This document shows positions 19,340 to 28,604 of a stretch of DNA of 64,000 bases, piece by piece. The translations under genes and the position numbers were made by a program. The notes below the pieces were generated by a model, which was not told where the DNA came from, made no database searches, and was given only the letters and a program-made list of their open reading frames with translations. This DNA comes from an uncultured Saprospiraceae bacterium (lineage in GTDB: Bacteria; Bacteroidota; Bacteroidia; Chitinophagales; Saprospiraceae). The number at the start of each line of letters is the position of its first letter. Positions within the stretch are counted from its first letter, which is position 1. Where the stretch lies: assembly GCA_964449535.1 (NCBI GenBank), contig CAYUZA010000002.1, positions 45,549-109,548 of the forward strand, written 5' to 3'.

Positions 19340-21022
19340 ATGCAACTTGAAAAAAGCCTAGATAGATTTATTTCTTTGGGATCGGAAGCGAAAGATTGGG
19401 CGCTTCCGGAAAAGTTTACCTATCCGTTTCATTACGAGCCGCACCCTTTAGCCAAAATTGCCGCAACAGATTTTCAAGAGCGGTACATGAGCACCATAGA
19501 AAACGCCCATGCATTTTGGAGAGAAACAACATCTGGAACAGGCAAAATGATTGGGGTGTTGGTGGTATTAACTCAGGATAACAAACTGGGGTATATAGCC
19601 GCATTTTCAGGAAAACTGTCATCCGGAAACCATATTTATCCTTTTGTGCCTCCGGTTTATGATATGCTTAGCGAATCGGGCTTTTATAAACAAGAGGAAG
19701 CAATACTTAATGGGCTGAACCATCAAATAAGTCTGCTGGAATCATCACAGGAGCGCCAACGAATAATAGAGGAATTGGTCACAGTGCTCAAAGAGGGAGA
19801 AGAGGCGGTTTTGTTGGCTAAACAAAACATAGAACTACAGCGAAACGAGCGGAAAAACAAAAGGCAGCAATTTTATGAATTGGGTTTATTGGAAACAGAG
19901 ATAACAAAGGCTAATCTTGCCCTGGACGAAGAAAGCAAAACAGAGCAAATCGCATTGAAAGGGCTAAAGAGGCACTGGAGGGAAAAGGAAGAGGCCTTAA
20001 AAAGCAAACTGGAAGAAATAGACCATCGAATAGCCGCACTAAAACAAGAGCGAAAGGCGCTATCGGCAAACGTTCAACAGCGATTATTTCAAGCATATAG
20101 TTTTCTAAATATTAGGGGAGAAAGAAAGAGTTTGTTGGATATTTTTGGCAATAGCGCAGAACAGCAGCCGCCATCGGGCGCAGGAGAGTGTGCGGCGCCC
20201 AAGTTGCTACATTATGCCTTTTTGCAGGGTTGGAGGCCGGTGTGCATGGCCGAGTTTTGGTGGGGAGAGTCGCCCAAGTCAGAAGTTAGGCATCATGGTA
20301 CGTTTTACCCGGCTTGCCGAAGCAAATGTAAGCCGATACTACAACACATGCTGGACGGGGTAGAAACCGATCCCGACCCACTTATGAGGGATAGAGAAGA
20401 ACTTAAAGAGATGCCATTGGTGTTTGAGGATCAAGACATTATAGCAGTTAACAAGCCCCCTGGATTATTGTCTGTTCCTGGCAAAAGCAATTTGCCATCG
20501 GTGTATACCATACTTCAAGAAAAGTACCCGACCGAAAAAATATACATGGTTCACAGGTTGGATATGTCCACCTCGGGCGTTTTGTTGGTTGCACGCAACC
20601 TAGATACATATCATCAATTGCAGGAGCAATTTGCTTCACGTCAGGTGAAAAAAAGGTATGTTGCGCTGTTAAATGGATTTTTAAACGAAAAATCGGGCGA
20701 AATAAAGCTACCCTTGCGTGTAGACCTGGATGATCGACCAAGGCAACTGGTATGCTATGAGCACGGACTGTCTGCCCATACCCGCTGGAAAGTATGTGGA
20801 GAACATGCCTTTGGTAGTCGAGTGTATTTTTACCCGATAACCGGGCGAACACACCAGTTAAGGGTGCATGCAGCGCATCAGCAAGGTTTGGGTTGTCCTA
20901 TTGTAGGCGATGATTTGTATGGGCAAATGGCTGACCGCCTTTACTTACATGCAGAAGCGATTGATTTTGTCCACCCGACAAGCGGACAAACATTGCGGCT
21001 GAGGGCTCCAGCCTCATTTTAG
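19340..21022 (+). CDS. RluA-family pseudouridine synthase fused to a ~370-aa N-terminal domain of unknown function
   Basis: C-terminal catalytic core with HRLDMSTSGVLLVAR and HQLRVH. The N-terminal part is discussed in findings. Confidence 0.8.
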   Translation: MQLEKSLDRFISLGSEAKDWALPEKFTYPFHYEPHPLAKIAATDFQERYMSTIENAHAFWRETTSGTGKMIGVLVVLTQDNKLGYIAAFSGKLSSGNHIYPFVPPVYDMLSESGFYKQEEAILNGLNHQISLLESSQERQRIIEELVTVLKEGEEAVLLAKQNIELQRNERKNKRQQFYELGLLETEITKANLALDEESKTEQIALKGLKRHWREKEEALKSKLEEIDHRIAALKQERKALSANVQQRLFQAYSFLNIRGERKSLLDIFGNSAEQQPPSGAGECAAPKLLHYAFLQGWRPVCMAEFWWGESPKSEVRHHGTFYPACRSKCKPILQHMLDGVETDPDPLMRDREELKEMPLVFEDQDIIAVNKPPGLLSVPGKSNLPSVYTILQEKYPTEKIYMVHRLDMSTSGVLLVARNLDTYHQLQEQFASRQVKKRYVALLNGFLNEKSGEIKLPLRVDLDDRPRQLVCYEHGLSAHTRWKVCGEHAFGSRVYFYPITGRTHQLRVHAAHQQGLGCPIVGDDLYGQMADRLYLHAEAIDFVHPTSGQTLRLRAPASF

Positions 21023-21110: not shown

Positions 21111-22724
21111 TTATATCGGGTTCAAGCCCAATTCTTTCAAATATTCATTGTGTTTATCGGTATTAAACTTAATCATTTCATTAATGGTTGTCAGCTTTTC
21201 GTTTACTTCTTGTAGATCTATTTGCACCTCGTCTTCTGATGTGCTGACATACCTGGAAATATTAAGATTGTACCCGTTTTTCTCAATTTCGTCCATAGAT
21301 ACCCTGCGAGCATATTTCTCTACGTTTTCGGGTCGGTATTGGTAGGTTTCAATGATTTTGTTGATGTGTTCTTCTTCAATGGTGTTTTGTCTTTTGCCGG
21401 CCTTGTAGTGTTCTGCTGCATTGATGAATAATACATCGTCGTGTTTTTTGCATTTTTTCAACACCAAAATACAAACGGGAATACCTGTCGAGTAAAACAA
21501 GTTAGAAGGCAAACCAATAACTGTGTCAATATGGTTGTCCTTTAATAACTTGGTTCTGATCCGCTCTTCTGCCCCACCACGGAACAAAACTCCGTGTGGC
21601 AGGATGATTGCCATAGTTCCATCTTTGGCTAAGAAGTGAAAACCATGCAAAAGAAAGGCAAAGTCTGCGGCCGATTTTGGCGCCAAACCATAATTTTTAA
21701 AACGAAAATCATCTGACATGGATTCGTTAGGCTCCCACCGCAAGCTGAAAGGCGGATTGCATACTATCGCATCAAACTCTATTTTTTTTGCCGGGTTTAA
21801 CTCATTGAACAGCTGCCACTGATTGAGCAGTGTATCTCCATGGAAAATCTCAAACTCCGTATCTTTCATGCCATGAAGAAGCATATTCATTCGGGCAAGG
21901 TTATAAGTGGTGATATTTTTTTCCTGACCATATACTTTTCCGACATATCCACCAATTTCCTTCACCCGACTTCTGAGATTTAGTAGTAGTGACCCTGACC
22001 CACATGTGATGTCCAGGATTTTTTCAAGTTTCTTTCTGAAGCCGGTTGATGGGTCTTGACTGTCCAGAAGAACAATTTTAGAAAGTATGGTAGACATTTG
22101 TTGTGGGGTATAAAACTCACCGGCTTTTTTACCTGATCCCGCAGCAAATTGTCCAATCAAATATTCATAGGCATCGCCCAGGGTGTCCGAGTCCGCTGAA
22201 AAATCTGCTATACCTTCCGATATTTTCTGAATAATGGTGCAAAGTTTTTTGTTTCTTTCGACGGCTGTCTTTCCCAGTTTTTCTGAATTCAAATTGATTT
22301 CAGAAAATAAGCCCTGAAAAGCACTTTCAAAAGATTCGTTTTCGATGTAGCGAAAACCTGCTTCCAGGGTCACCAACAAATCCGGACTCTGGGTGCGTGC
22401 CATTTCGCTGATGTTGCTCCAGAGATGTTCGGGTTTGATGACATAATGCACTTTTCTGCGCATTTGTTTTTCATATTCCGGCACTTCCGGGTCATTTAGC
22501 ACATACCATTCGGCCAATGGGGTACGACCGTCATTTTCATCCAAAACAGGATAATCTCTGCCCAATTCTTTTTTAGCCGCTTCCTCATAATTGTGGCTCA
22601 AATACCGAAGGAAGAGAAAGGATAGCATATAATCGCGAAAATCATCAGCATTCATGGCACCGCGTAGGTTGTCTGCTATGGCCCAAAGGGTTTTACCTAA
22701 TTGTTGTTGGTCTTTATGTGTCAT
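21111..22724 (-). CDS. hsdM: Type I restriction-modification system, methyltransferase subunit
   Basis: HsdM_N-type N-terminus (LWAIADNLRG...FRDYMLSFLFLRYLS), SAM motif I DITCGSGSLL, catalytic NPPF (VCNPPFS). Confidence 0.95.
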   Translation of the reverse strand: MTHKDQQQLGKTLWAIADNLRGAMNADDFRDYMLSFLFLRYLSHNYEEAAKKELGRDYPVLDENDGRTPLAEWYVLNDPEVPEYEKQMRRKVHYVIKPEHLWSNISEMARTQSPDLLVTLEAGFRYIENESFESAFQGLFSEINLNSEKLGKTAVERNKKLCTIIQKISEGIADFSADSDTLGDAYEYLIGQFAAGSGKKAGEFYTPQQMSTILSKIVLLDSQDPSTGFRKKLEKILDITCGSGSLLLNLRSRVKEIGGYVGKVYGQEKNITTYNLARMNMLLHGMKDTEFEIFHGDTLLNQWQLFNELNPAKKIEFDAIVCNPPFSLRWEPNESMSDDFRFKNYGLAPKSAADFAFLLHGFHFLAKDGTMAIILPHGVLFRGGAEERIRTKLLKDNHIDTVIGLPSNLFYSTGIPVCILVLKKCKKHDDVLFINAAEHYKAGKRQNTIEEEHINKIIETYQYRPENVEKYARRVSMDEIEKNGYNLNISRYVSTSEDEVQIDLQEVNEKLTTINEMIKFNTDKHNEYLKELGLNPI

Positions 22725-23332
22725 TGAAAAAATTTATCATTCCGCCAATTGGCAGGGTTATTTATAATGTAATCGGAAATGGTTTGATATGATTTATCAT
22801 CGCGGATAATGCGGTCGTGAAAACGGGGTTGCCATTGAAAATCAGGGTAAATCAAACGGGCATTTTTCGTAACGCCAATTTTAAAACCGCGTATTATTGA
22901 TGCCAAATTTTTGGATTGTGGTCCGAATTGGTTTTTGGGTTGGTTTGGTCCCGTTTCCGTTTCCGTTTCCGTTTCCGTTTCCGTTGAGACGCAATGCATT
23001 GCGTCTCTACAATCCACCGCGCCAACCACCGATTTTCGTTGTGAATTATATTTATTTTCACCAATACCAATTATGGCATGAAAATGATCAGGCATCACCA
23101 CGTATTCACCCATCGACAAATTCATATCGGGGCGTAATGCAAATGTTTTTAACCATTCTGAATTAACAATTTGTCCAATTTGTGACAATTGCATTTTTCC
23201 ACCCACAATTTCCCCAAAATAATGTTCACGGTTTTGGGTACAAATGGTAATAAAATACGCACCCGCCCACCGATAATCCCAATGTTGTGCCCGGGCGGAT
23301 GCAATGCGGTATTTGTTTTTGAATTTTTCCAT
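22721..23332 (-). CDS. Y1 HUH transposase-like protein (IS200-like fold, REP-associated tyrosine transposase / RayT-like)
   Basis: HUH motif MPDHFHAIIG and C-terminal Tyr helix ISDYIINNPANW. The stop overlaps the hsdM start by 4 nt (ATGA). No IS ends were seen. Confidence 0.8.
   Translation of the reverse strand: MEKFKNKYRIASARAQHWDYRWAGAYFITICTQNREHYFGEIVGGKMQLSQIGQIVNSEWLKTFALRPDMNLSMGEYVVMPDHFHAIIGIGENKYNSQRKSVVGAVDCRDAMHCVSTETETETETETGPNQPKNQFGPQSKNLASIIRGFKIGVTKNARLIYPDFQWQPRFHDRIIRDDKSYQTISDYIINNPANWRNDKFFQ
22951..22985. repeat. Hexanucleotide microsatellite (CCGTTT) x ~5.8, in frame, encoding (TE)5 on the minus strand
   Basis: Read directly: ccgtttccgtttccgtttccgtttccgtttccgtt. Translates to STETETETETETG inside the Y1 gene. 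Confidence 0.95.
22986..23007. repeat. P1: 22-nt perfect palindrome GAGACGCAATGCATTGCGTCTC inside the Y1 gene
   Basis: Read directly. 11-bp self-complementary arms. Encodes RDAMHCVS on the minus strand. Confidence 0.95.
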
Positions 23333-23335
23333 CTT

Positions 23336-24586
23336 CTATCCTTTAACCATAGGAAACAAACCCTGCATCAACCCCTTTTTATGCAACTTCAATTGTTCTA
23401 TCTTCTCCGCCTGTGCCGTGATAAGGGCATCTAAAGACGACAGACAAGAAGCGATTTTTTGTTGTTCTTTTGGGTTCATAGGAAAGGTGATATTCAAGGA
23501 TTGTAATTGACTTGAATATAGGTGCACAACCGAAATTCCTTGAGCCAGCTGAGCAATTTCAGATTTTTTCGCGCTATTCAAATAGTAGGCTAAAAAGACA
23601 CCATCAAAATCGGAACGGATAATATTCAAATCACCTCCCAAAGCAATACCGCTTCTCAGAACGCAGGATGCAGTTGCAATATCATTTTGGGTTTCACCTG
23701 ATGCTGGAATAATAACATCATTCTCTTCGCTTAGCATCAATTCATTAGCATTTAAATGGGTGTAAGATTTCACAACATCAATAGTTTCATTGTAATGAGT
23801 ATATAACTCACCATATCTAATACAGGGTAATATGCCATTTTCAACAATATCTGATTTTGAAATTCCTTTGCCTTTGTAGAATGTAGCAACCTCCCCCAAC
23901 TTCTTCTCCACCCACTCCCCATCTTTCTCAAACTCTTTAAAGCGAACCTTCGGCACTTTCTCGCCTGCTGAAGGAAAAAGGTTTTGCATCAAGCCTTTTT
24001 TGTGGTCTCGCAGAGACGCAATGCGTTGCGTCTCTGCGGCTATCAGGTCATCTAAGGAGGAGAGGCAAGAGGCGATTTTTTGTTGTTCTTTCGGATTCAT
24101 TGGAAATTTGACACCAATATTTTTTAAGTCGGAATTGTATAAACGACTGATAACACCACCATCAGAAGTTTGCCATTTAATAATTGAATAACAATGGTAT
24201 AAAAACTCATTCAGAATCTGCTTTTCATCATTACCCAGCCATACAATATTTGAATCCTGAAAATATGCCGGTGAGCCATCGTAAACTACAAGTCTGCCAA
24301 TTGTACCAGATGCGGAAATTAAGATATCACCCATTTTAGGGAACGAATATTTGCTTTTGAATTCTTCATACAAATCAAATGAAATATAAGCATCTGCTTG
24401 TTTTCCAAATGTTCCGATTTTATAAAAAGGAATTCTATTATTTGGATTTGTAGTTGTTTGTTCTTTGAATATCCGTTTACACATTAATGGTTCACCAATT
24501 TCCCCCAACTTCTTCTCCACCCACTCCCCCTCATTCTCAAACTCAGGAAAACGCCATTTAGGTATTAGTTTATTTGTCTTACTCAT
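23336..24586 (-). CDS. hsdS: Type I restriction-modification system, specificity subunit (two TRDs)
   Basis: Duplicated architecture: EFE(N/K)(E/D)GEWVEKKLGE at each TRD start and FPMNPKEQQKIASCLSSLD...HKKGLMQ.LFP at each conserved region. Confidence 0.9.
   Translation of the reverse strand: MSKTNKLIPKWRFPEFENEGEWVEKKLGEIGEPLMCKRIFKEQTTTNPNNRIPFYKIGTFGKQADAYISFDLYEEFKSKYSFPKMGDILISASGTIGRLVVYDGSPAYFQDSNIVWLGNDEKQILNEFLYHCYSIIKWQTSDGGVISRLYNSDLKNIGVKFPMNPKEQQKIASCLSSLDDLIAAETQRIASLRDHKKGLMQNLFPSAGEKVPKVRFKEFEKDGEWVEKKLGEVATFYKGKGISKSDIVENGILPCIRYGELYTHYNETIDVVKSYTHLNANELMLSEENDVIIPASGETQNDIATASCVLRSGIALGGDLNIIRSDFDGVFLAYYLNSAKKSEIAQLAQGISVVHLYSSQLQSLNITFPMNPKEQQKIASCLSSLDALITAQAEKIEQLKLHKKGLMQGLFPMVKG
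24010..24037. repeat. P2: 28-nt hairpin-palindrome GCAGAGACGCAATGCGTTGCGTCTCTGC inside the hsdS central conserved region
   Basis: Read directly. 12-bp arms around TGCG. The inner 22 nt differ from P1 at one position. Encodes AETQRIASL on the minus strand. Confidence 0.95.
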
Positions 24587-25610
24587 CTTTTCTCTCTGTT
24601 GCGTTTATTTCGTTCAATACTAAGGTTTGCAGTTCGTCTTTTGGCAATAACAATTGGTATTCGGCTACGCCTATTGGTTTGTTAATGTCTTGCAGTGCTA
24701 TTTCCACATCCAAATGGTCTTTATCGGCACAGAGAATAATACCAATAGAAGGGTTTTCGTTTTCTCCTTTTTCCAATTTATCCAACAGGGAAAGATAGAG
24801 GTTCATTTTGCCTACATATTCGGCTTTAAAACTGCCAATCTTTAATTCAATAGCCACCAAAGACTGTAATCCTCTGTGGAAGAAAAGCATATCCACAAAA
24901 TATTCTTTGTTGTTGTACTCCAAGCGGTATTGGTTGCCTATAAATGAAAATCCTCTGCCTAACTCCAATACAAAAGCCCTGATTTTGGCTATCAACCTGT
25001 TTTCTAACTCTAATTCTTTTACAGGTTCCGTAATGCCTAGAAAACCGAGGTTGTAAGAGCTTTTAAATACTTCGTTGGCATATTCGGCACTTACTTCAGG
25101 CAATGTATTGCTGAAATTGTTGCTTTTCAGTTGGTTTTCAGCATGGCTGTAAATATCCATTTTGATGGCATTGAGTAATAAATCTCTGCTCCAACCTTTG
25201 GTTACGGCTTCATTGGCATAATATGCAACAGCTTCAAGTGACTGAATTTTGTTGATTAACAGTAAATTGTGTCCCCACGGCAAAACTGCGACAAGCTGTC
25301 GCAGTTTTGGGTCAGTCAAATAGTAACGCTCATAAAAACGTTTCATATCCCACAAGTTGCGAGGTGATAAGCCCATATCAGGAAATTCGATTTTGAGGTC
25401 AATGGACAATTGTTTAACAACACCACTGCCATAGCCTTCTTCTAACTGTTTTTCGAAGAGTAGTTTTCCCAAATTCCAATACACGGAATTTGTGGTACTG
25501 TTTACCTGTTTTGCAATTAGCGTTCGGGCAGTTTGGATTTGAGCTACCGCCTGTAGCAGTATTTTTCTGTAATCCGAATCGTTGATATTTATTTGAGGTT
25601 TATTACTCAT
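24579..25610 (-). CDS. DUF1016 / YhcG-like PD-(D/E)XK nuclease-fold protein
   Basis: N-terminal helical region (NSVYWNLGKLL...LPWGHNLLL) and C-terminal FVDMLFFHRGLQSLVAIELKIGSFKAEYVGKMNLYL (D...E-x-K). Overlaps the hsdS start by 8 nt. Confidence 0.8.
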   Translation of the reverse strand: MSNKPQININDSDYRKILLQAVAQIQTARTLIAKQVNSTTNSVYWNLGKLLFEKQLEEGYGSGVVKQLSIDLKIEFPDMGLSPRNLWDMKRFYERYYLTDPKLRQLVAVLPWGHNLLLINKIQSLEAVAYYANEAVTKGWSRDLLLNAIKMDIYSHAENQLKSNNFSNTLPEVSAEYANEVFKSSYNLGFLGITEPVKELELENRLIAKIRAFVLELGRGFSFIGNQYRLEYNNKEYFVDMLFFHRGLQSLVAIELKIGSFKAEYVGKMNLYLSLLDKLEKGENENPSIGIILCADKDHLDVEIALQDINKPIGVAEYQLLLPKDELQTLVLNEINATERKDE

Positions 25611-25616
25611 TTCGAT

Positions 25617-28604
25617 TTATTTATTATCATAAGCAGCCAAACCGCTTATTTCTCTGCCTTGAGCTAGCTTTTTTAACTGCGGCACCAGGTCTGCCATCAA
25701 TGCCAATTCTTTCACCCTGCGCTCTTTCCAGCTCAATTCCAATGGCTCTAGTAGATCGGTGAGCTTTTCACCGTCAAAAACCATCCGGCTCAATATGTTT
25801 TCTACAAAGCTTTTCAAATCTGCCATTTGTAGGCCGTGTTGGTGGGCAATGGCAGCCAGTTCTGCATGGTATTTGTCGTCTTTAAACTTTTCGTAGCCTT
25901 TTCGTAATTCTGCTTCTGTTTGCCCTTTGTTCCAATCCAGCCTATCGATGTATTCGGATAGGGCTTCTTCCTCGTCCATCAAATTGGAATTGGAGCGCAA
26001 GATACTTTTTACCTGTTCTTTGCTCATTTTCTGCTTGCCGGGTGTTCTTTGAGTGCTGTCGGCAATCAGGTTCATAATGTAGTCATAATCAATCACCGCA
26101 GAAGCAAACAACACAAATTCAAAATCCAGTTGCTGAATTTCGGGCGGTGTATCCTCTCCGCCTTTTTGTTGTATTTTCCGAAATTGCTTGGCCGTTTCTA
26201 AATAAGAGCTTCGGAATTCTAAAAAGGTATCTTTAGGTAAGATTTGATTAATAAGTTCTTTTTGCTCCGGCTCTAAATCTGTAAATTGTTCTAATGCAAG
26301 CAACTGGCGCTGTACTTCTTTAAAATTCTGAACGAAAGCAATTTTAGCAGCGTTGCCTCTTACATTATAAACTTCTTGTGGTTCGCAAACCAAGCCTTGT
26401 TCTTGCATAAAGAGATTCAGGCGTTCGACCGCATCCTTGAATTTTTCAATAACCACGGGTGCGGGGTCAACCAACCAAATTTCTCTTGATTTATTTTCAT
26501 CTATACCAGAAAACAAGGCAATGGCGTTGTTAACCGCATCTTGTTGCGAGCGAAAATCAAGGATGTTTCCATGGGGTTTGGTATCATTTAGCACACGGTT
26601 GGTTCGCGAAAACGCCTGAATCAATCCGTGGTATTTCAGGTTTTTGTCCACGTACAAGGTGTTCAGATACTTGCTGTCGAACCCGGTGAGCAGCATGTCT
26701 ACTACTATAGTGATGTCAATCTTATTTTTGTGCGGATAGTCTTTGTTGCTGTATTTCTGATTTTTGATGCGCGTTTGTACATCCTGGTAAAACAGGTCAA
26801 AAAAGTTAATATCAAAACTGGTGCCATAACGCTTGTTGTAATCAGCTATAATGGTTTTCAGAGCAGCTTTCTTTTCATCTGGATTTTGTTTGTTGTCCTC
26901 TTTCTCTTGGGATAAATCTTCCTGAATCTGCTGAATGTCGGTGTTGCCTTCGGCTGGTGGGGAGAATACGCAGGCGATATTCAAAGGCACATAGTCGGGA
27001 CTAGACGCAACGCGTTGCGACTGTATTTCCTTAAAAAGATTGTAATATTCAATGGCGCTGTTGATAGAAGCTGTGGCCAACACGGCATTGAATCGTCTAG
27101 AATTGGTAGCGGCATCGTGTTTGTCCAAAATAGCTTCTACTACTGCCTGTTGGGCAATGGCTTCGCCTGGCTTAGCTTGAATTTCACCTTTTCCTTTAAA
27201 GTAGTCTATGTGAAAACGCAATACATTTTTATCTTCAATGGCGTGGGTGATAGTGTAGGCGTGTAATTGCTTTTCAAAAATATCTTGTGTGGTTTTGTAA
27301 GAAGCAAACTCACCCTCTCTGATGTTGTATGATGAGTTTTCATCAAAAATAGGTGTTCCGGTAAAACCAAAAAGTTGAGCATTCGGGAAAAACTCCTTAA
27401 TGGCTTTGTGATTTTCTCCAAATTGCGAACGATGGCACTCATCGAAAATAAAAACCATCCGTTTGCTTCGAAGCGGTTCTAGTCTTTCCTTGTAGTTGAG
27501 GCGCGACGCATCGCGTCTTTGCGAGCCATCTAAAGCCAAACCCAATTTCTGAATCGTGGTGACAATCACCTTGTCGGCATAGTCGGCCGAAAGTAAACGC
27601 CTTACTAATGTTTCGGTATTGGTGTTTTCTTCTACGCTTCCTTCTTGGAATTTATTGAACTCTTCACGCGTTTGGCGATCAAGGTCTTTGCGGTCTACCA
27701 CGAACAAACATTTTTCAATGTCGGCATTGTCTTTAAGAAGGGTAGCAGCTTTGAAAGAAGTCAGCGTTTTACCGCTTCCTGTAGTATGCCAGATATAGCC
27801 GTTGCCACGGTTTTGTTGGATGCAATCAATTATCGCATTTACAGCATAAATCTGATACGGCCGCATAATGAGCAACTTCTGTTCACTCTCCACGAGTACC
27901 ATATACTTGCTAATCATACTGCCCAAAGTGCATTTGGGCAGGAATTTTTCGGTAAAGGTTTCAAGGTGAGTTATTTTCTTATTGCTCTCGTCTGCTAGTT
28001 GATAAATTGGTAAGAATTGCTCGTCTGCATTAAAAGAGAAATGTTGGTTCTTGTTGTTGGCAAAATAATAGGTATTTGTCTTGTTGCTTACAACAAACAA
28101 CTGCATATAGCAAAGCAATGAATTACCGTAACCGTTTCCAGCTTCATTTTTATAATCTACAATTTGCTGCATTGCTTTTCTTGGTGCAATATCGAGGTTT
28201 TTTAACTCTATTTGCACCACAGGTAAGCCGTTGATCAAGAGAATCACGTCATAACGTTGATGACTGTTTTCTGTATTGATACGCAATTGACTGATAACTT
28301 CAAAATCATTTTTGCACCAGTCTTTGTTGTTTACCAAAGTGTAATGCAAAGGCGTTCCGTCTTCACGCTGAAAGTATTGTCTTTCACGCAACAATTTTGA
28401 TGCTTTGAACACATCAGGTTGTATGATTTCTTCTCTCAATCTTAAAAATTCGTTGTCAGACAAACGAACACGGTTGAGTGTTTCAAATTTTGTTTTGAAG
28501 TTTTGTTCAAGCGTTTTTCTATCAACTATGTCAGGGCGATGTGTGTATTTCAGCCCTTTCAGTTGCTCGATTAGATATTCTTCTATTTGATTCTCTTTGC
28601 TCAT
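25617..28604 (-). CDS. hsdR: Type I restriction endonuclease, R subunit
   Basis: N-terminal nuclease region, helicase motif I HTTGSGKTLTSF, motif II FDECHRSQ. About 996 aa from MSKENQIEEYL. The upstream 30 codons of the ORF are judged non-coding. Confidence 0.95.
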   Translation of the reverse strand: MSKENQIEEYLIEQLKGLKYTHRPDIVDRKTLEQNFKTKFETLNRVRLSDNEFLRLREEIIQPDVFKASKLLRERQYFQREDGTPLHYTLVNNKDWCKNDFEVISQLRINTENSHQRYDVILLINGLPVVQIELKNLDIAPRKAMQQIVDYKNEAGNGYGNSLLCYMQLFVVSNKTNTYYFANNKNQHFSFNADEQFLPIYQLADESNKKITHLETFTEKFLPKCTLGSMISKYMVLVESEQKLLIMRPYQIYAVNAIIDCIQQNRGNGYIWHTTGSGKTLTSFKAATLLKDNADIEKCLFVVDRKDLDRQTREEFNKFQEGSVEENTNTETLVRRLLSADYADKVIVTTIQKLGLALDGSQRRDASRLNYKERLEPLRSKRMVFIFDECHRSQFGENHKAIKEFFPNAQLFGFTGTPIFDENSSYNIREGEFASYKTTQDIFEKQLHAYTITHAIEDKNVLRFHIDYFKGKGEIQAKPGEAIAQQAVVEAILDKHDAATNSRRFNAVLATASINSAIEYYNLFKEIQSQRVASSPDYVPLNIACVFSPPAEGNTDIQQIQEDLSQEKEDNKQNPDEKKAALKTIIADYNKRYGTSFDINFFDLFYQDVQTRIKNQKYSNKDYPHKNKIDITIVVDMLLTGFDSKYLNTLYVDKNLKYHGLIQAFSRTNRVLNDTKPHGNILDFRSQQDAVNNAIALFSGIDENKSREIWLVDPAPVVIEKFKDAVERLNLFMQEQGLVCEPQEVYNVRGNAAKIAFVQNFKEVQRQLLALEQFTDLEPEQKELINQILPKDTFLEFRSSYLETAKQFRKIQQKGGEDTPPEIQQLDFEFVLFASAVIDYDYIMNLIADSTQRTPGKQKMSKEQVKSILRSNSNLMDEEEALSEYIDRLDWNKGQTEAELRKGYEKFKDDKYHAELAAIAHQHGLQMADLKSFVENILSRMVFDGEKLTDLLEPLELSWKERRVKELALMADLVPQLKKLAQGREISGLAAYDNK
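27003..27022. repeat. P3: 20-nt palindrome AGACGCAACGCGTTGCGACT (one mismatch) inside hsdR
   Basis: Read directly. 18/20 identical to the core of P2, in the same reading frame relative to the palindrome (SQRVASS versus TQRIASL). Confidence 0.85.
27499..27518. repeat. P4: hairpin AGGCGCGA-CGCA-TCGCGTCT inside hsdR (possible degenerate relative of P1-P3)
   Basis: 8-bp stem with one G-T pair and a 4-nt loop. Shares GACGCA and GCGTCT with P1-P3. Encodes RRDASRL. Confidence 0.5.

What the first reader, a model, noticed from the sequence alone, without database searches (positions are those of the whole stretch)
21111..28604. Tightly packed five-gene type I R-M operon with two extra nuclease-fold genes (Y1/HUH and DUF1016)
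All five minus-strand genes are packed without room for internal promoters. The gaps are: hsdR to DUF1016, 6 nt; DUF1016 to hsdS, 8-nt overlap; hsdS to Y1, 3 nt; Y1 to hsdM, 4-nt ATGA overlap. The Y1 protein keeps both catalytic signatures (HUH in DHFHAIIG, Tyr in SDYIINNP), so it is not a decayed IS remnant. No IS200/IS605-type ends or tnpB accompany it. DUF1016/YhcG-like genes are known passengers of type I R-M loci. A translationally coupled RayT-like ssDNA transesterase between hsdS and hsdM is not something I know as a described R-M accessory. It may be a domesticated component of the defence operon, for example acting on ssDNA hairpins or ssDNA phage and plasmid intermediates, rather than a selfish insertion.
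Basis: partly seen in the sequence, partly recalled or inferred. Interest (0 to 1): 0.62.

Follow-up and report, generated by a model that had tools for sequence, protein, structure and literature searches.

The report
Hairpin-cutting transposase gene inside restriction operon
A complete type I restriction-modification operon carries two passenger genes, and one of them is a REP-associated "domesticated transposase" (RAYT) whose relatives sit inside such operons far more often than chance allows, which gives a testable clue to what these enzymes do.

Summary
Five co-oriented minus-strand genes, hsdR–DUF1016–hsdS–Y1–hsdM, are joined by a 6-nt gap, an 8-nt overlap, a 3-nt gap and an ATGA overlap.

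The 203-aa protein is a RAYT/TnpA_REP of subclass 2.4. Its HUH, WQ and YIINNP motifs are intact and its best fold match is E. coli TnpA_REP (4ER8). Its cognate REP hairpin lies in frame in its own gene, which is a published hallmark of the subclass. A 1-mismatch copy lies in hsdS and diverged copies lie in hsdR. These are the only close copies in the 3.47-Mb genome.

In 80 related operons (HsdM 77–85% identical), the hsdS–hsdM gap is a cargo slot:
- PrrC in 37 loci
- RAYT in 9
- RhuM in 5
- DarTG in 4
- DUF1016 in 4
- a second Y1 family in 4
- no DDE transposases

About 10% of family members in Bacteroidota genomes, and 18 of 80 metagenome relatives, lie between hsd genes. All are co-oriented, several type I families are involved, and at least 10 independent context switches are needed.

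It is therefore not an IS insertion. It is a REPtron lodged as operon cargo. A defence role is plausible but untested. I found no paper describing the association.

The parts
25617..28604 (-). hsdR, type I restriction subunit (995 aa). First gene of the operon.
   Evidence: TIGR00348 389.6 bits (cut-off 284.6). Pfam HSDR_N, SWI2_SNF2, T1R_D3-like and EcoR124_C. Homologues align from residue 1.
24579..25610 (-). DUF1016/YhcG PD-(D/E)XK nuclease gene. Cargo in slot 1 (hsdR to hsdS).
   Evidence: Pfam YhcG_C 3.4e-56 and DUF1016_N 1e-38. PADLOC candidate family PDC-S02, E 4.5e-121. In related operons the same family is found in slot 1, in slot 2 or after hsdM.
23336..24586 (-). hsdS, specificity subunit with two target-recognition domains.
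   Evidence: Pfam Methylase_S, two stretches, 2e-42. Internal repeats D1 and D3.
22721..23332 (-). RAYT / TnpA_REP subclass 2.4 gene (203 aa). Cargo in slot 2 (hsdS to hsdM).
   Evidence: NF047646 REP_Tyr_transpos 2.9e-16, below its cut-off. Motifs DHFH, WQ and YIINNP. AlphaFold2 model pLDDT 76.7. Foldseek top hit 4ER8 TnpA_REP, E 1.6e-6. 7264 homologues.
21111..22724 (-). hsdM, methyltransferase subunit. Last gene; its ATG overlaps the RAYT stop codon (ATGA).
   Evidence: TIGR00497 378.5 bits (cut-off 242.8). HsdM_N + N6_Mtase. Sequence read.
22986..23010 (-). REP hairpin in frame in the RAYT gene. It is a 22-nt perfect palindrome, GAGACGCAATGCATTGCGTCTC, with a GTAG foot on the coding strand, and it encodes RDAMHCVS.
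   Evidence: The peptide RDAMHCVST is nearly invariant in 50 homologues while its flanks are hypervariable. It lies in the loop that the model leaves disordered, residues 99-139.
22951..22985 (-). (GGAAAC)~5 hexanucleotide microsatellite next to the REP. It encodes TETETETETE.
   Evidence: A 97.4%-identical metagenome allele (L153) has one unit instead of five.
24009..24038 (-). REP copy in the central conserved coiled-coil region of hsdS. It has 13-nt arms, and its inner 22 nt differ from the RAYT copy at one base.
   Evidence: It replaces HSQKLELLK of about 55 related HsdS proteins with ETQRIASLR, with no change in length. It is read in a different frame from the RAYT copy, so the likeness is at the DNA level.
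27003..27022 (-). Diverged REP-type palindrome in hsdR (site B, SQRVASS).
   Evidence: It replaces KKKQAEN-type residues of relatives at equal length. The same site holds REP-type palindromes in L041, L045 and L064, which carry a RAYT, and in L058, which does not.
27498..27520 (-). Diverged REP-type palindrome in hsdR (site A, GSQRRDASRL).
   Evidence: It is a 5-residue insertion relative to most relatives. In L083 a run of seven REP copies at 30-nt spacing lies at the 5' contig edge, where its hsdR alignment begins (query residue 362), close to this site.

Best explanation
The locus is a horizontally mobile type I restriction-modification operon (hsdR-hsdS-hsdM, with an EcoR124-like HsdR). 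Both of its inter-gene 'cargo slots' are filled. Slot 1 holds a DUF1016/YhcG nuclease. Slot 2 holds a REPtron, meaning a RAYT (TnpA_REP subclass 2.4) gene together with its own REP hairpins.

Shown:
- The RAYT gene has no ends of its own.
- It is joined to its neighbours by a 3-nt gap and an ATGA overlap.
- Its HUH and Tyr residues are intact.
- Its hairpin occurs in frame in its own gene, in hsdS and, diverged, in hsdR.
- Relatives of many lineages occupy the same kind of position in several type I families, always in the same orientation as the hsd genes.

Inferred:
- It is transcribed and translated as part of the hsd message.
- The enzyme cuts and rejoins single-stranded REP hairpins, as E. 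coli TnpA_REP does, and has thereby planted REP patches in permissive loops of the neighbouring genes.
- The operon serves it as an expression platform, a protected address (losing the operon is costly) and a vehicle for horizontal transfer.
- On this reading it is a tolerated resident of the cargo slot, not a working part of restriction. I hold this last step only at about even odds.
For: - Gene order, junctions and domains.
- Subclass assignment: the motifs and the in-frame REP match Quentin et al. 2018 (PMC6006769); the fold and profile hit 4ER8.
- The REP copies are confined to the operon. There are only two copies with 3 or fewer mismatches in 3.47 Mb.
- The patches are equal-length replacements relative to 50-60 related HsdS and HsdR proteins.
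- GC-rich perfect palindromes lie inside hsd genes in 6 of 9 RAYT-bearing loci against 4 of 52 RAYT-less related loci (Fisher p = 2.6e-4).
- Slot 2 is a cargo slot in 80 related operons: PrrC 37, RAYT 9, RhuM 5, DUF1016 4, Y1_Tnp 4, DarT+DarG 4, KilA-N 3, PDDEXK_3 3, and empty in 6.
- The same RAYT clade also sits alone among housekeeping genes, and the window's nearest relative in the tree is such a copy.
- Tandem copies, fragments and one decayed copy occur in other operons (L124, L122, L045).
- Di Nocera et al. 2013 (PMC3733652) already argue that RAYT expression depends on read-through from upstream genes, and they document REPs inside genes.
Against: - The association is too strong and too orderly for a passive passenger. 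About 13 of roughly 135 family loci in 128 Bacteroidota genomes lie between hsd genes, where about 0.6 is expected. So do 18 of 80 metagenome relatives.
- All are co-oriented with the hsd genes, and several type I families are involved (HsdM only 25-45% identical to this one).
- The tree forces at least 10 context switches.
- HUH and Tyr are kept in 25 of 27 embedded copies.
- The other occupants of the slot are defence or abortive-infection genes, and no DDE transposase or integrase was found there.
- A second, unrelated Y1 family also uses the slot.
- No mechanism is known that would place an end-less gene so precisely.
Confidence: 0.5

Rival explanations
1. The RAYT is a working accessory of the defence operon. 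It would be an HUH single-strand DNA nuclease, co-expressed with the type I enzyme, that acts on hairpins in single-stranded invaders which a type I enzyme cannot restrict (conjugative DNA, ssDNA phage, rolling-circle plasmids, transforming DNA), or on ssDNA produced during restriction.
For: - Recurrent, co-oriented and often translationally coupled embedding in several type I families.
- At least 10 independent switches of context.
- Catalytic motifs conserved in embedded copies.
- The same slot holds PrrC, DarTG, RhuM, Fic, SIR2+HerA-like genes and DUF1016.
- 'Guilt by embedding' has predicted real defence genes, and that screen set aside mobility-associated proteins, so RAYTs would have been missed (bioRxiv 10.1101/2024.01.29.577857).
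- Bertels et al. 2017 speculated that RAYTs defend against foreign DNA (PMC5581495).
Against: - Most family members, including the window's closest relative, are not near defence genes.
- Known RAYTs are specific for their own REP, and the cognate hairpins here are in the host's own genes.
- There is no PADLOC model hit.
- No experiment exists.
- Six related operons work with an empty slot.
Confidence: 0.3
2. The RAYT/REP pair serves the operon by changing or regulating it. Hairpins in the hsdS central region and in hsdR loops would be sites for RAYT-driven recombination (exchange of target-recognition domains, cargo swapping), or RNA or DNA structures that tune the relative expression of R, S and M.
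For: - The REP lies exactly in the hsdS central conserved region, where domain exchange happens.
- The near-identical allele L153 loses homology upstream of window 23491, inside hsdS.
- One RAYT-bearing operon has an inverted hsdS pair (L125).
- REPs flank the hsdS-RAYT junction in L063, L064, L083 and L118.
Against: - A REP in hsdS was seen only in this window among the 10 RAYT-bearing operons of this family.
- The patches keep length and frame, as expected for neutral survivors.
- hsdS domain exchange is common without any RAYT.
- No second hsdS copy lies nearby.
Confidence: 0.1
3. It is a recent simple insertion of an IS200-type element into the hsdS-hsdM junction.
For: Related operons have the junction empty, with hsdS coupled directly to hsdM (L033, L095). 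The protein has the IS200-like Y1 fold.
Against: - There is no room for left and right end hairpins (3-nt gap, 4-nt overlap).
- There is no tnpB.
- The genome holds one copy plus a 33%-identical paralogue.
- No footprint or duplication is visible at empty sites.
- The protein belongs to the RAYT class, not to TnpA_IS200.
- Other RAYT lineages, 37-70% identical to this one, occupy the same slot.
Confidence: 0.03

Closest known systems
REPtrons of TnpA_REP subclass 2.4 (RAYT group 4): Quentin, Siguier, Chandler & Fichant 2018, BMC Genomics 19:475 (PMC6006769); Bertels et al. 2017 (PMC5581495)
   Same: HUH / WQ / YIxNNP motifs. An enlarged and hypervariable stretch between HUH and Tyr. A REP with a GTAG foot inserted in frame in the gene itself. 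REP copies within about 1 kb. One or two copies per genome. Common in Bacteroidota.
   Different: Here the gene has no intergenic flanks at all. It is translationally coupled inside a type I R-M operon, and its neighbouring REPs lie in frame inside hsdS and hsdR. Neither paper mentions R-M operons as a habitat.
E. coli TnpA_REP (YafM), PDB 4ER8, bound to a REP hairpin
   Same: Best structural match (Foldseek E 1.6e-6, TM 0.52/0.63). The profile aligns the HUH and Tyr motifs.
   Different: 20% identity. E. coli belongs to subclass 2.2 and has hundreds of extragenic REPs. This protein has a 40-residue disordered insertion, and only two close REP copies exist in the genome.
Genes embedded in type I R-M operons ('guilt by embedding', Payne et al. 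bioRxiv 10.1101/2024.01.29.577857; PrrC; DarTG; PADLOC PDC-S02 = DUF1016)
   Same: Same kind of position, between hsd genes, co-oriented and often overlapping. The same slot in related operons holds PrrC, DarTG, RhuM, Fic and DUF1016.
   Different: That screen removed mobility-associated proteins. No RAYT, IS200 or Y1 term occurs in its text or its 11 supplementary files. No defence phenotype is known for any RAYT.
Intragenic REPs (Di Nocera, De Gregorio & Rocco 2013, PMC3733652)
   Same: GTAG-tagged palindromes lying wholly inside ORFs without breaking them.
   Different: That paper notes repair and replication genes as hosts. The word 'restriction' does not occur in it. Here the patches replace segments at equal length.
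IS200/IS605 insertion sequences
   Same: Y1 HUH fold and chemistry.
   Different: No subterminal end hairpins, no tnpB, no multiple identical copies, and a different subclass.

Membership tests
TnpA_REP / RAYT subclass 2.4 (Quentin 2018) | HuH motif NH[IFV]H | tested here: met
   The window has DHFH. Both histidines are present, with Asp in place of the usual Asn; 49 of 50 close homologues have NHFH. It aligns to PEHMH of 4ER8.
TnpA_REP / RAYT subclass 2.4 (Quentin 2018) | WQ motif and Tyr motif YIxNNP | tested here: met
   WQPRFHD and YIINNP. Y188, W167 and Q168 are invariant or nearly so in 50 homologues. They align to WQPRF and YIYINP of 4ER8.
TnpA_REP / RAYT subclass 2.4 (Quentin 2018) | Long, variable HuH-to-Tyr distance (median 88 aa), with short repeats and a REP inserted in frame | tested here: met
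   The distance is 108 residues. The 22-nt palindrome plus (GGAAAC)5 lie in the loop. The loop is disordered in the model. Paper text.
TnpA_REP / RAYT subclass 2.4 (Quentin 2018) | Y1 HUH fold closest to TnpA_REP | tested here: met
   Foldseek rank 1 is 4ER8_A, probability 1.00. IS608 and ISDra2 TnpA follow.
TnpA_REP / RAYT subclass 2.4 (Quentin 2018) | Reaches the curated score of the library models (NCBIfam NF047646; Pfam Y1_Tnp) | tested here: not met
   NF047646 scores 59.7 bits against a cut-off of 80. There is no Pfam hit at E <= 0.01. The precomputed Pfam column is '-' for 119 of the 120 homologues listed (the one entry, PF04886 on P0071, was not identified), so the library models do not appear to cover this branch. 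I treat this as a gap in the models, not as exclusion.
TnpA_REP / RAYT subclass 2.4 (Quentin 2018) | Cleaves and rejoins its cognate REP in single-stranded DNA | not testable with these tools
   Needs purified protein and REP oligonucleotides.
Type I restriction-modification system | HsdM, HsdS (two recognition domains) and HsdR all present and full length | tested here: met
   TIGR00497 and TIGR00348 score above their cut-offs. Methylase_S hits twice. PADLOC MTase_I 5.5e-156.
IS200/IS605 insertion sequence | tnpA flanked by left and right subterminal hairpins; usually several identical copies; often tnpB | tested here: not met
   The 3-nt gap and 4-nt overlap leave no ends. The genome has one copy plus a 33%-identical paralogue. 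No tnpB.
Defence genes embedded in defence systems (guilt by embedding) | Lies between genes of one defence system, and homologues do so repeatedly | tested here: met
   More than 40 loci, all co-oriented.
Defence genes embedded in defence systems (guilt by embedding) | Not a mobility-associated protein, and gives a protection phenotype | not testable with these tools
   It is a transposase relative, so it would be filtered out as a MAP. No phenotype data exist. No PADLOC hit.
PADLOC PDC-S02 (DUF1016/YhcG) | Matches the family models over full length | tested here: met
   PDLC04795, E 4.5e-121, residues 9-340. Pfam YhcG_C + DUF1016_N.

The most novel reading that the evidence does not exclude
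RAYT-type HUH nucleases are a real, overlooked class of accessory effectors of type I restriction-modification systems. They would have been missed because they are annotated as transposases and removed from embedding screens. On this reading they deal with single-stranded or hairpin DNA of invaders, or process ssDNA made during restriction. That would give the long-unknown cellular function of at least one RAYT branch.
Probability: 0.27. Interest if true: 0.8.

Novelty: new variant of a known kind. Interest (0 to 1): 0.58.

Why it matters
RAYTs were recognised about fifteen years ago as single-copy, apparently domesticated transposases, and their benefit to the cell is still unknown. A strong, repeated and oriented linkage to type I R-M operons gives the first concrete context in which to test a function (defence, DNA uptake, or simple exploitation of an addictive operon).

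It also shows that screens which discard 'transposases' from genes embedded in defence systems may be discarding a real signal.

For annotation, it explains the odd in-frame palindromes in hsdS and hsdR as REP patches left by the resident RAYT.

Tried and rejected
- Sigma-70-type and Bacteroidota-type (TTTG...TAnnTTTG) promoter scans and a terminator scan gave nothing above shuffled controls. They neither support nor contradict a single transcript.
- An empty-site comparison in same-genus genomes failed. The flanking RluA-like gene has no orthologue in the four same-genus or the family-level genomes searched.
- A loose palindrome classifier (one mismatch allowed) at hsdR site B was too noisy (p = 0.23). 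I replaced it with perfect GC-rich palindromes over all hsd coding sequence.
- Pfam gave no hit for the Y1 protein.
- The idea that the palindrome is a genome-wide REP family was rejected, since the genome holds only two close copies.
- The idea that the hsdS copy reflects protein homology was rejected, since it is read in a different frame.
- Window versus L153 gives 2 synonymous and 4 non-synonymous codon differences in the RAYT gene, too few to infer selection.
Full report
**1. What is there**

The minus strand of 21111-28604 holds five consecutive ORFs:
- hsdR 25617-28604
- a DUF1016/YhcG gene 24579-25610
- hsdS 23336-24586
- a 203-aa Y1 gene 22721-23332
- hsdM 21111-22724

Reading the junctions confirms the stated spacings: TAA-6 nt-ATG, ATGAGTAA (8-nt overlap), TAG-3 nt-ATG, and ATGA. 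HsdM and HsdR score above the curated NCBIfam cut-offs, HsdS has two Methylase_S halves, and HsdR ends in an EcoR124_C domain. Base composition is even across the region.

**2. What the Y1 protein is**

- Pfam gives no hit, and NCBIfam NF047646 (REP-associated tyrosine transposase) scores 59.7 bits, below its cut-off of 80.
- The protein has 7264 homologues at E <= 1e-5, many 60-75% identical and spread over Bacteroidota.
- Its motifs are DHFH, WQPRFHD and YIINNP, with 108 residues between HUH and Tyr.
- These are the signature of TnpA_REP subclass 2.4 (Bertels group 4) as tabulated by Quentin et al. 2018 (PMC6006769).
- An AlphaFold2 model (pLDDT 76.7; residues 99-139 disordered) finds E. coli TnpA_REP bound to a REP (4ER8) as best match, followed by ISDra2 and IS608 TnpA.
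- A profile of 50 homologues aligns the HUH and Tyr motifs to 4ER8.

**3. The hairpins**

- Inside the disordered loop lies a perfect 22-nt palindrome, GAGACGCAATGCATTGCGTCTC, preceded by GTAG on the coding strand and followed by (GGAAAC)5.
- The encoded RDAMHCVST is nearly invariant among homologues, while both flanks are hypervariable repeats.
- Quentin et al. describe in-frame REPs in the tnpA_REP gene as the unique trait of subclass 2.4, so this part is already known.
- A copy with one mismatch lies in hsdS (24009-24038, 13-nt arms) and is read in a different frame.
- These two are the only copies with three or fewer mismatches in the 3.47-Mb assembly.
- In about 55 related HsdS proteins the central coiled-coil reads ...IAAHSQKLELLKDHKKGLMQ. 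Here it reads ...IAAETQRIASLRDHKKGLMQ, the same length.
- Two diverged palindromes lie in hsdR. At site B, SQRVASS replaces KKKQAEN-type residues at equal length. At site A, five residues are added.
- Site B also carries REP-type palindromes in three other RAYT-bearing operons (L041, L045, L064) and in one RAYT-less operon (L058).
- In L083 a run of seven REP copies at 30-nt spacing lies at the 5' contig edge, where its hsdR alignment begins, close to site A.
- Over all hsd coding sequence, perfect GC-rich palindromes occur in 6 of 9 RAYT-bearing loci and in 4 of 52 RAYT-less loci (Fisher p = 2.6e-4).

The unit is therefore a REPtron whose hairpins have been planted in its neighbours. REPs inside genes are documented in general (Di Nocera et al. 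2013, PMC3733652).

**4. The operon family and its slots**

A scan of one genome per species with HsdM returned 80 loci with HsdM 77-85% identical. They are spread over many Bacteroidota orders and a few other phyla, and all have the order hsdR-[slot 1]-hsdS-[slot 2]-hsdM.

Slot 2 is empty in six loci; in two of these, L033 and L095, hsdS is coupled directly to hsdM (a 9-nt gap and a TAATG overlap) and no footprint is visible. Otherwise it holds one cargo:

| Cargo in slot 2 | Loci |
|---|---|
| PrrC (PADLOC 6e-127) | 37 |
| RAYT subclass 2.4 | 9 |
| RhuM | 5 |
| DUF1016 | 4 |
| 155-aa Pfam Y1_Tnp protein of another subclass | 4 |
| DarT + DarG | 4 |
| KilA-N | 3 |
| PDDEXK_3 | 3 |
| Schlafen/AlbA_2-HATPase | 3 |
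| Fic | 1 |
| SIR2 + HerA-like | 1 |

- No DDE transposase or integrase was found.
- Cargo genes usually end within a few bases of the hsdM ATG or overlap it.
- The nine RAYTs are only 37-57% identical to this one although HsdM is about 80% identical, and each carries its own REP variant.
- DUF1016 occurs in slot 1, in slot 2 or after hsdM. It is PADLOC candidate PDC-S02.

**5. Is the RAYT family enriched in type I operons?**

- In 401 Bacteroidota genomes, 129 have a family member. I searched hsdM-like genes in the 128 positive genomes other than the window's own (174 hits).
- Thirteen RAYT places lie within about 5 kb of such a gene, out of roughly 135 distinct places listed. From the fraction of sequence near an hsdM-like gene (about 0.4%), 0.6 would be expected.
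- Fetching the 13 loci showed that in every one the RAYT lies between hsd genes and is co-oriented with them.
- The orders seen are R-S-Y1-M, R-Y1-S-M, M-S-Y1-R and M...Y1-R, in type I families whose HsdM is only 25-45% identical to this one.
- Five of the eight closest genome homologues are embedded.
- Ten close metagenome homologues were looked up. Four are embedded: P0007, P0015, P0035, and the near-identical P0001/L153. One (P0046) abuts a type I locus convergently. Five stand alone among housekeeping genes.
- In a separate scan of metagenome contigs, 18 of 80 relatives are directly flanked by hsd genes, all co-oriented, including four of the five closest.
- A maximum-likelihood tree of 52 copies mixes embedded and free copies. 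Well-supported branches force at least 10 changes of state, and the window's sister is a free copy.
- HUH and Tyr are kept in 25 of 27 embedded copies.
- Decay also occurs: L045 is broken, L122 has fragments, and L124 has three tandem copies.

**6. Reading**

- A plain IS insertion is excluded by the junction anatomy, the copy number and the subclass.
- What is established is a REPtron sitting as cargo in the embedded-gene slot of a mobile type I operon.
- Two readings remain open. In the first, it is a resident that exploits the operon for read-through expression, retention and transfer. The evidence for this is the free-standing relatives, REP seeding, duplication and decay, and Di Nocera's argument on read-through expression.
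- In the second, it is a working accessory. The evidence is the strength, order and repetition of the association, the conserved catalysis, the defence company in the slot, the absence of ordinary transposases there, and a second Y1 family in the same slot.
A third reading, 0.1, is a role in rearranging or tuning the operon through the hairpins.

**7. Known or new**

- Already published: subclass 2.4 RAYTs with in-frame REPs, intragenic REPs, embedded cargo in type I operons, and DUF1016 as candidate cargo.
- Full-text searches for RAYT or REP-associated transposase together with restriction-modification, type I restriction or hsd terms found no paper describing RAYTs as type I R-M cargo.
- The embedding preprint excludes mobility proteins, and its text and 11 supplementary files contain no RAYT, IS200 or Y1 term.
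- Notes from earlier agents of this scan report the same arrangement in other genomes. They agree with my counts but are not independent evidence.
- I therefore class this as a new variant (a new habitat and linkage) of a known kind.

**8. Limits**

- No empty-site comparison was possible in close relatives.
- The enrichment was cross-checked by hand from truncated lists.
- The only mobile-gene control is the absence of DDE elements from slot 2.

Noticed in passing
L040, L050, L054, L061 (slot between hsdS and hsdM): A second, unrelated Y1 family (155 aa, Pfam Y1_Tnp 5.6e-26, motifs DHSH and YIQNQPEHH, like subclass 1.2) occupies the same slot in 4 of 80 related operons. It sits with 240-310 nt of spacer before hsdM.
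   Followed up: partly
L083:3-172: Seven copies of a 20-nt REP (AGACGCGATGCATCGCGTCT) at an exact 30-nt period, at the contig edge where the tblastn match to HsdR starts (query residue 362; hit from L083:150). That is close to where the window's hsdR has GSQRRDASRL. Whether the run lies in frame inside hsdR was not checked.
   Followed up: partly
L124 (G047:C2, about 2300400-2302050) and L122 (G280:C1): Three tandem RAYT genes (35-38% identical to the window's) lie between hsdM and hsdR in one genome. In another genome one intact copy, a second full-length but more diverged copy (286-aa ORF, HUH and Tyr kept) and a short N-terminal fragment sit around hsdR.
   Followed up: no
L125 (G087:C21): A type I operon with two hsdS genes in inverted orientation (a shufflon-like layout), directly followed by a RAYT gene and hsdR.
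   Followed up: no
L153 compared with window 21840-23491: A metagenome contig from another sample is 97.4% identical over hsdS 3' end-RAYT-hsdM 5' end. It has one GGAAAC unit instead of five, and homology stops inside hsdS (a different recognition domain).
   Followed up: partly
L077:5032-7943: One related operon carries a SIR2-like gene plus a HerA-like ATPase gene (judged from the sequences only), and then a RhuM gene, between hsdS and hsdM.
   Followed up: no
window 19340-21022: The RluA-type pseudouridine synthase with a long N-terminal extension that flanks the operon has no orthologue in the four same-genus or the eight other related genomes searched, so the local synteny could not be compared.
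   Followed up: partly
G000:C51:12475-13074: The genome has a second, distant RAYT paralogue (33% identical). In the tree it groups with an embedded copy from another genome. Its own context was not examined.
   Followed up: no
L038:8087-8392, L106:7937-8428, L045: Long in-frame or out-of-frame microsatellite tracts (GN/DN, HH/TT-rich, PS/NP repeats) lie next to RAYT genes in the slot, sometimes forming spurious ORFs.
   Followed up: no
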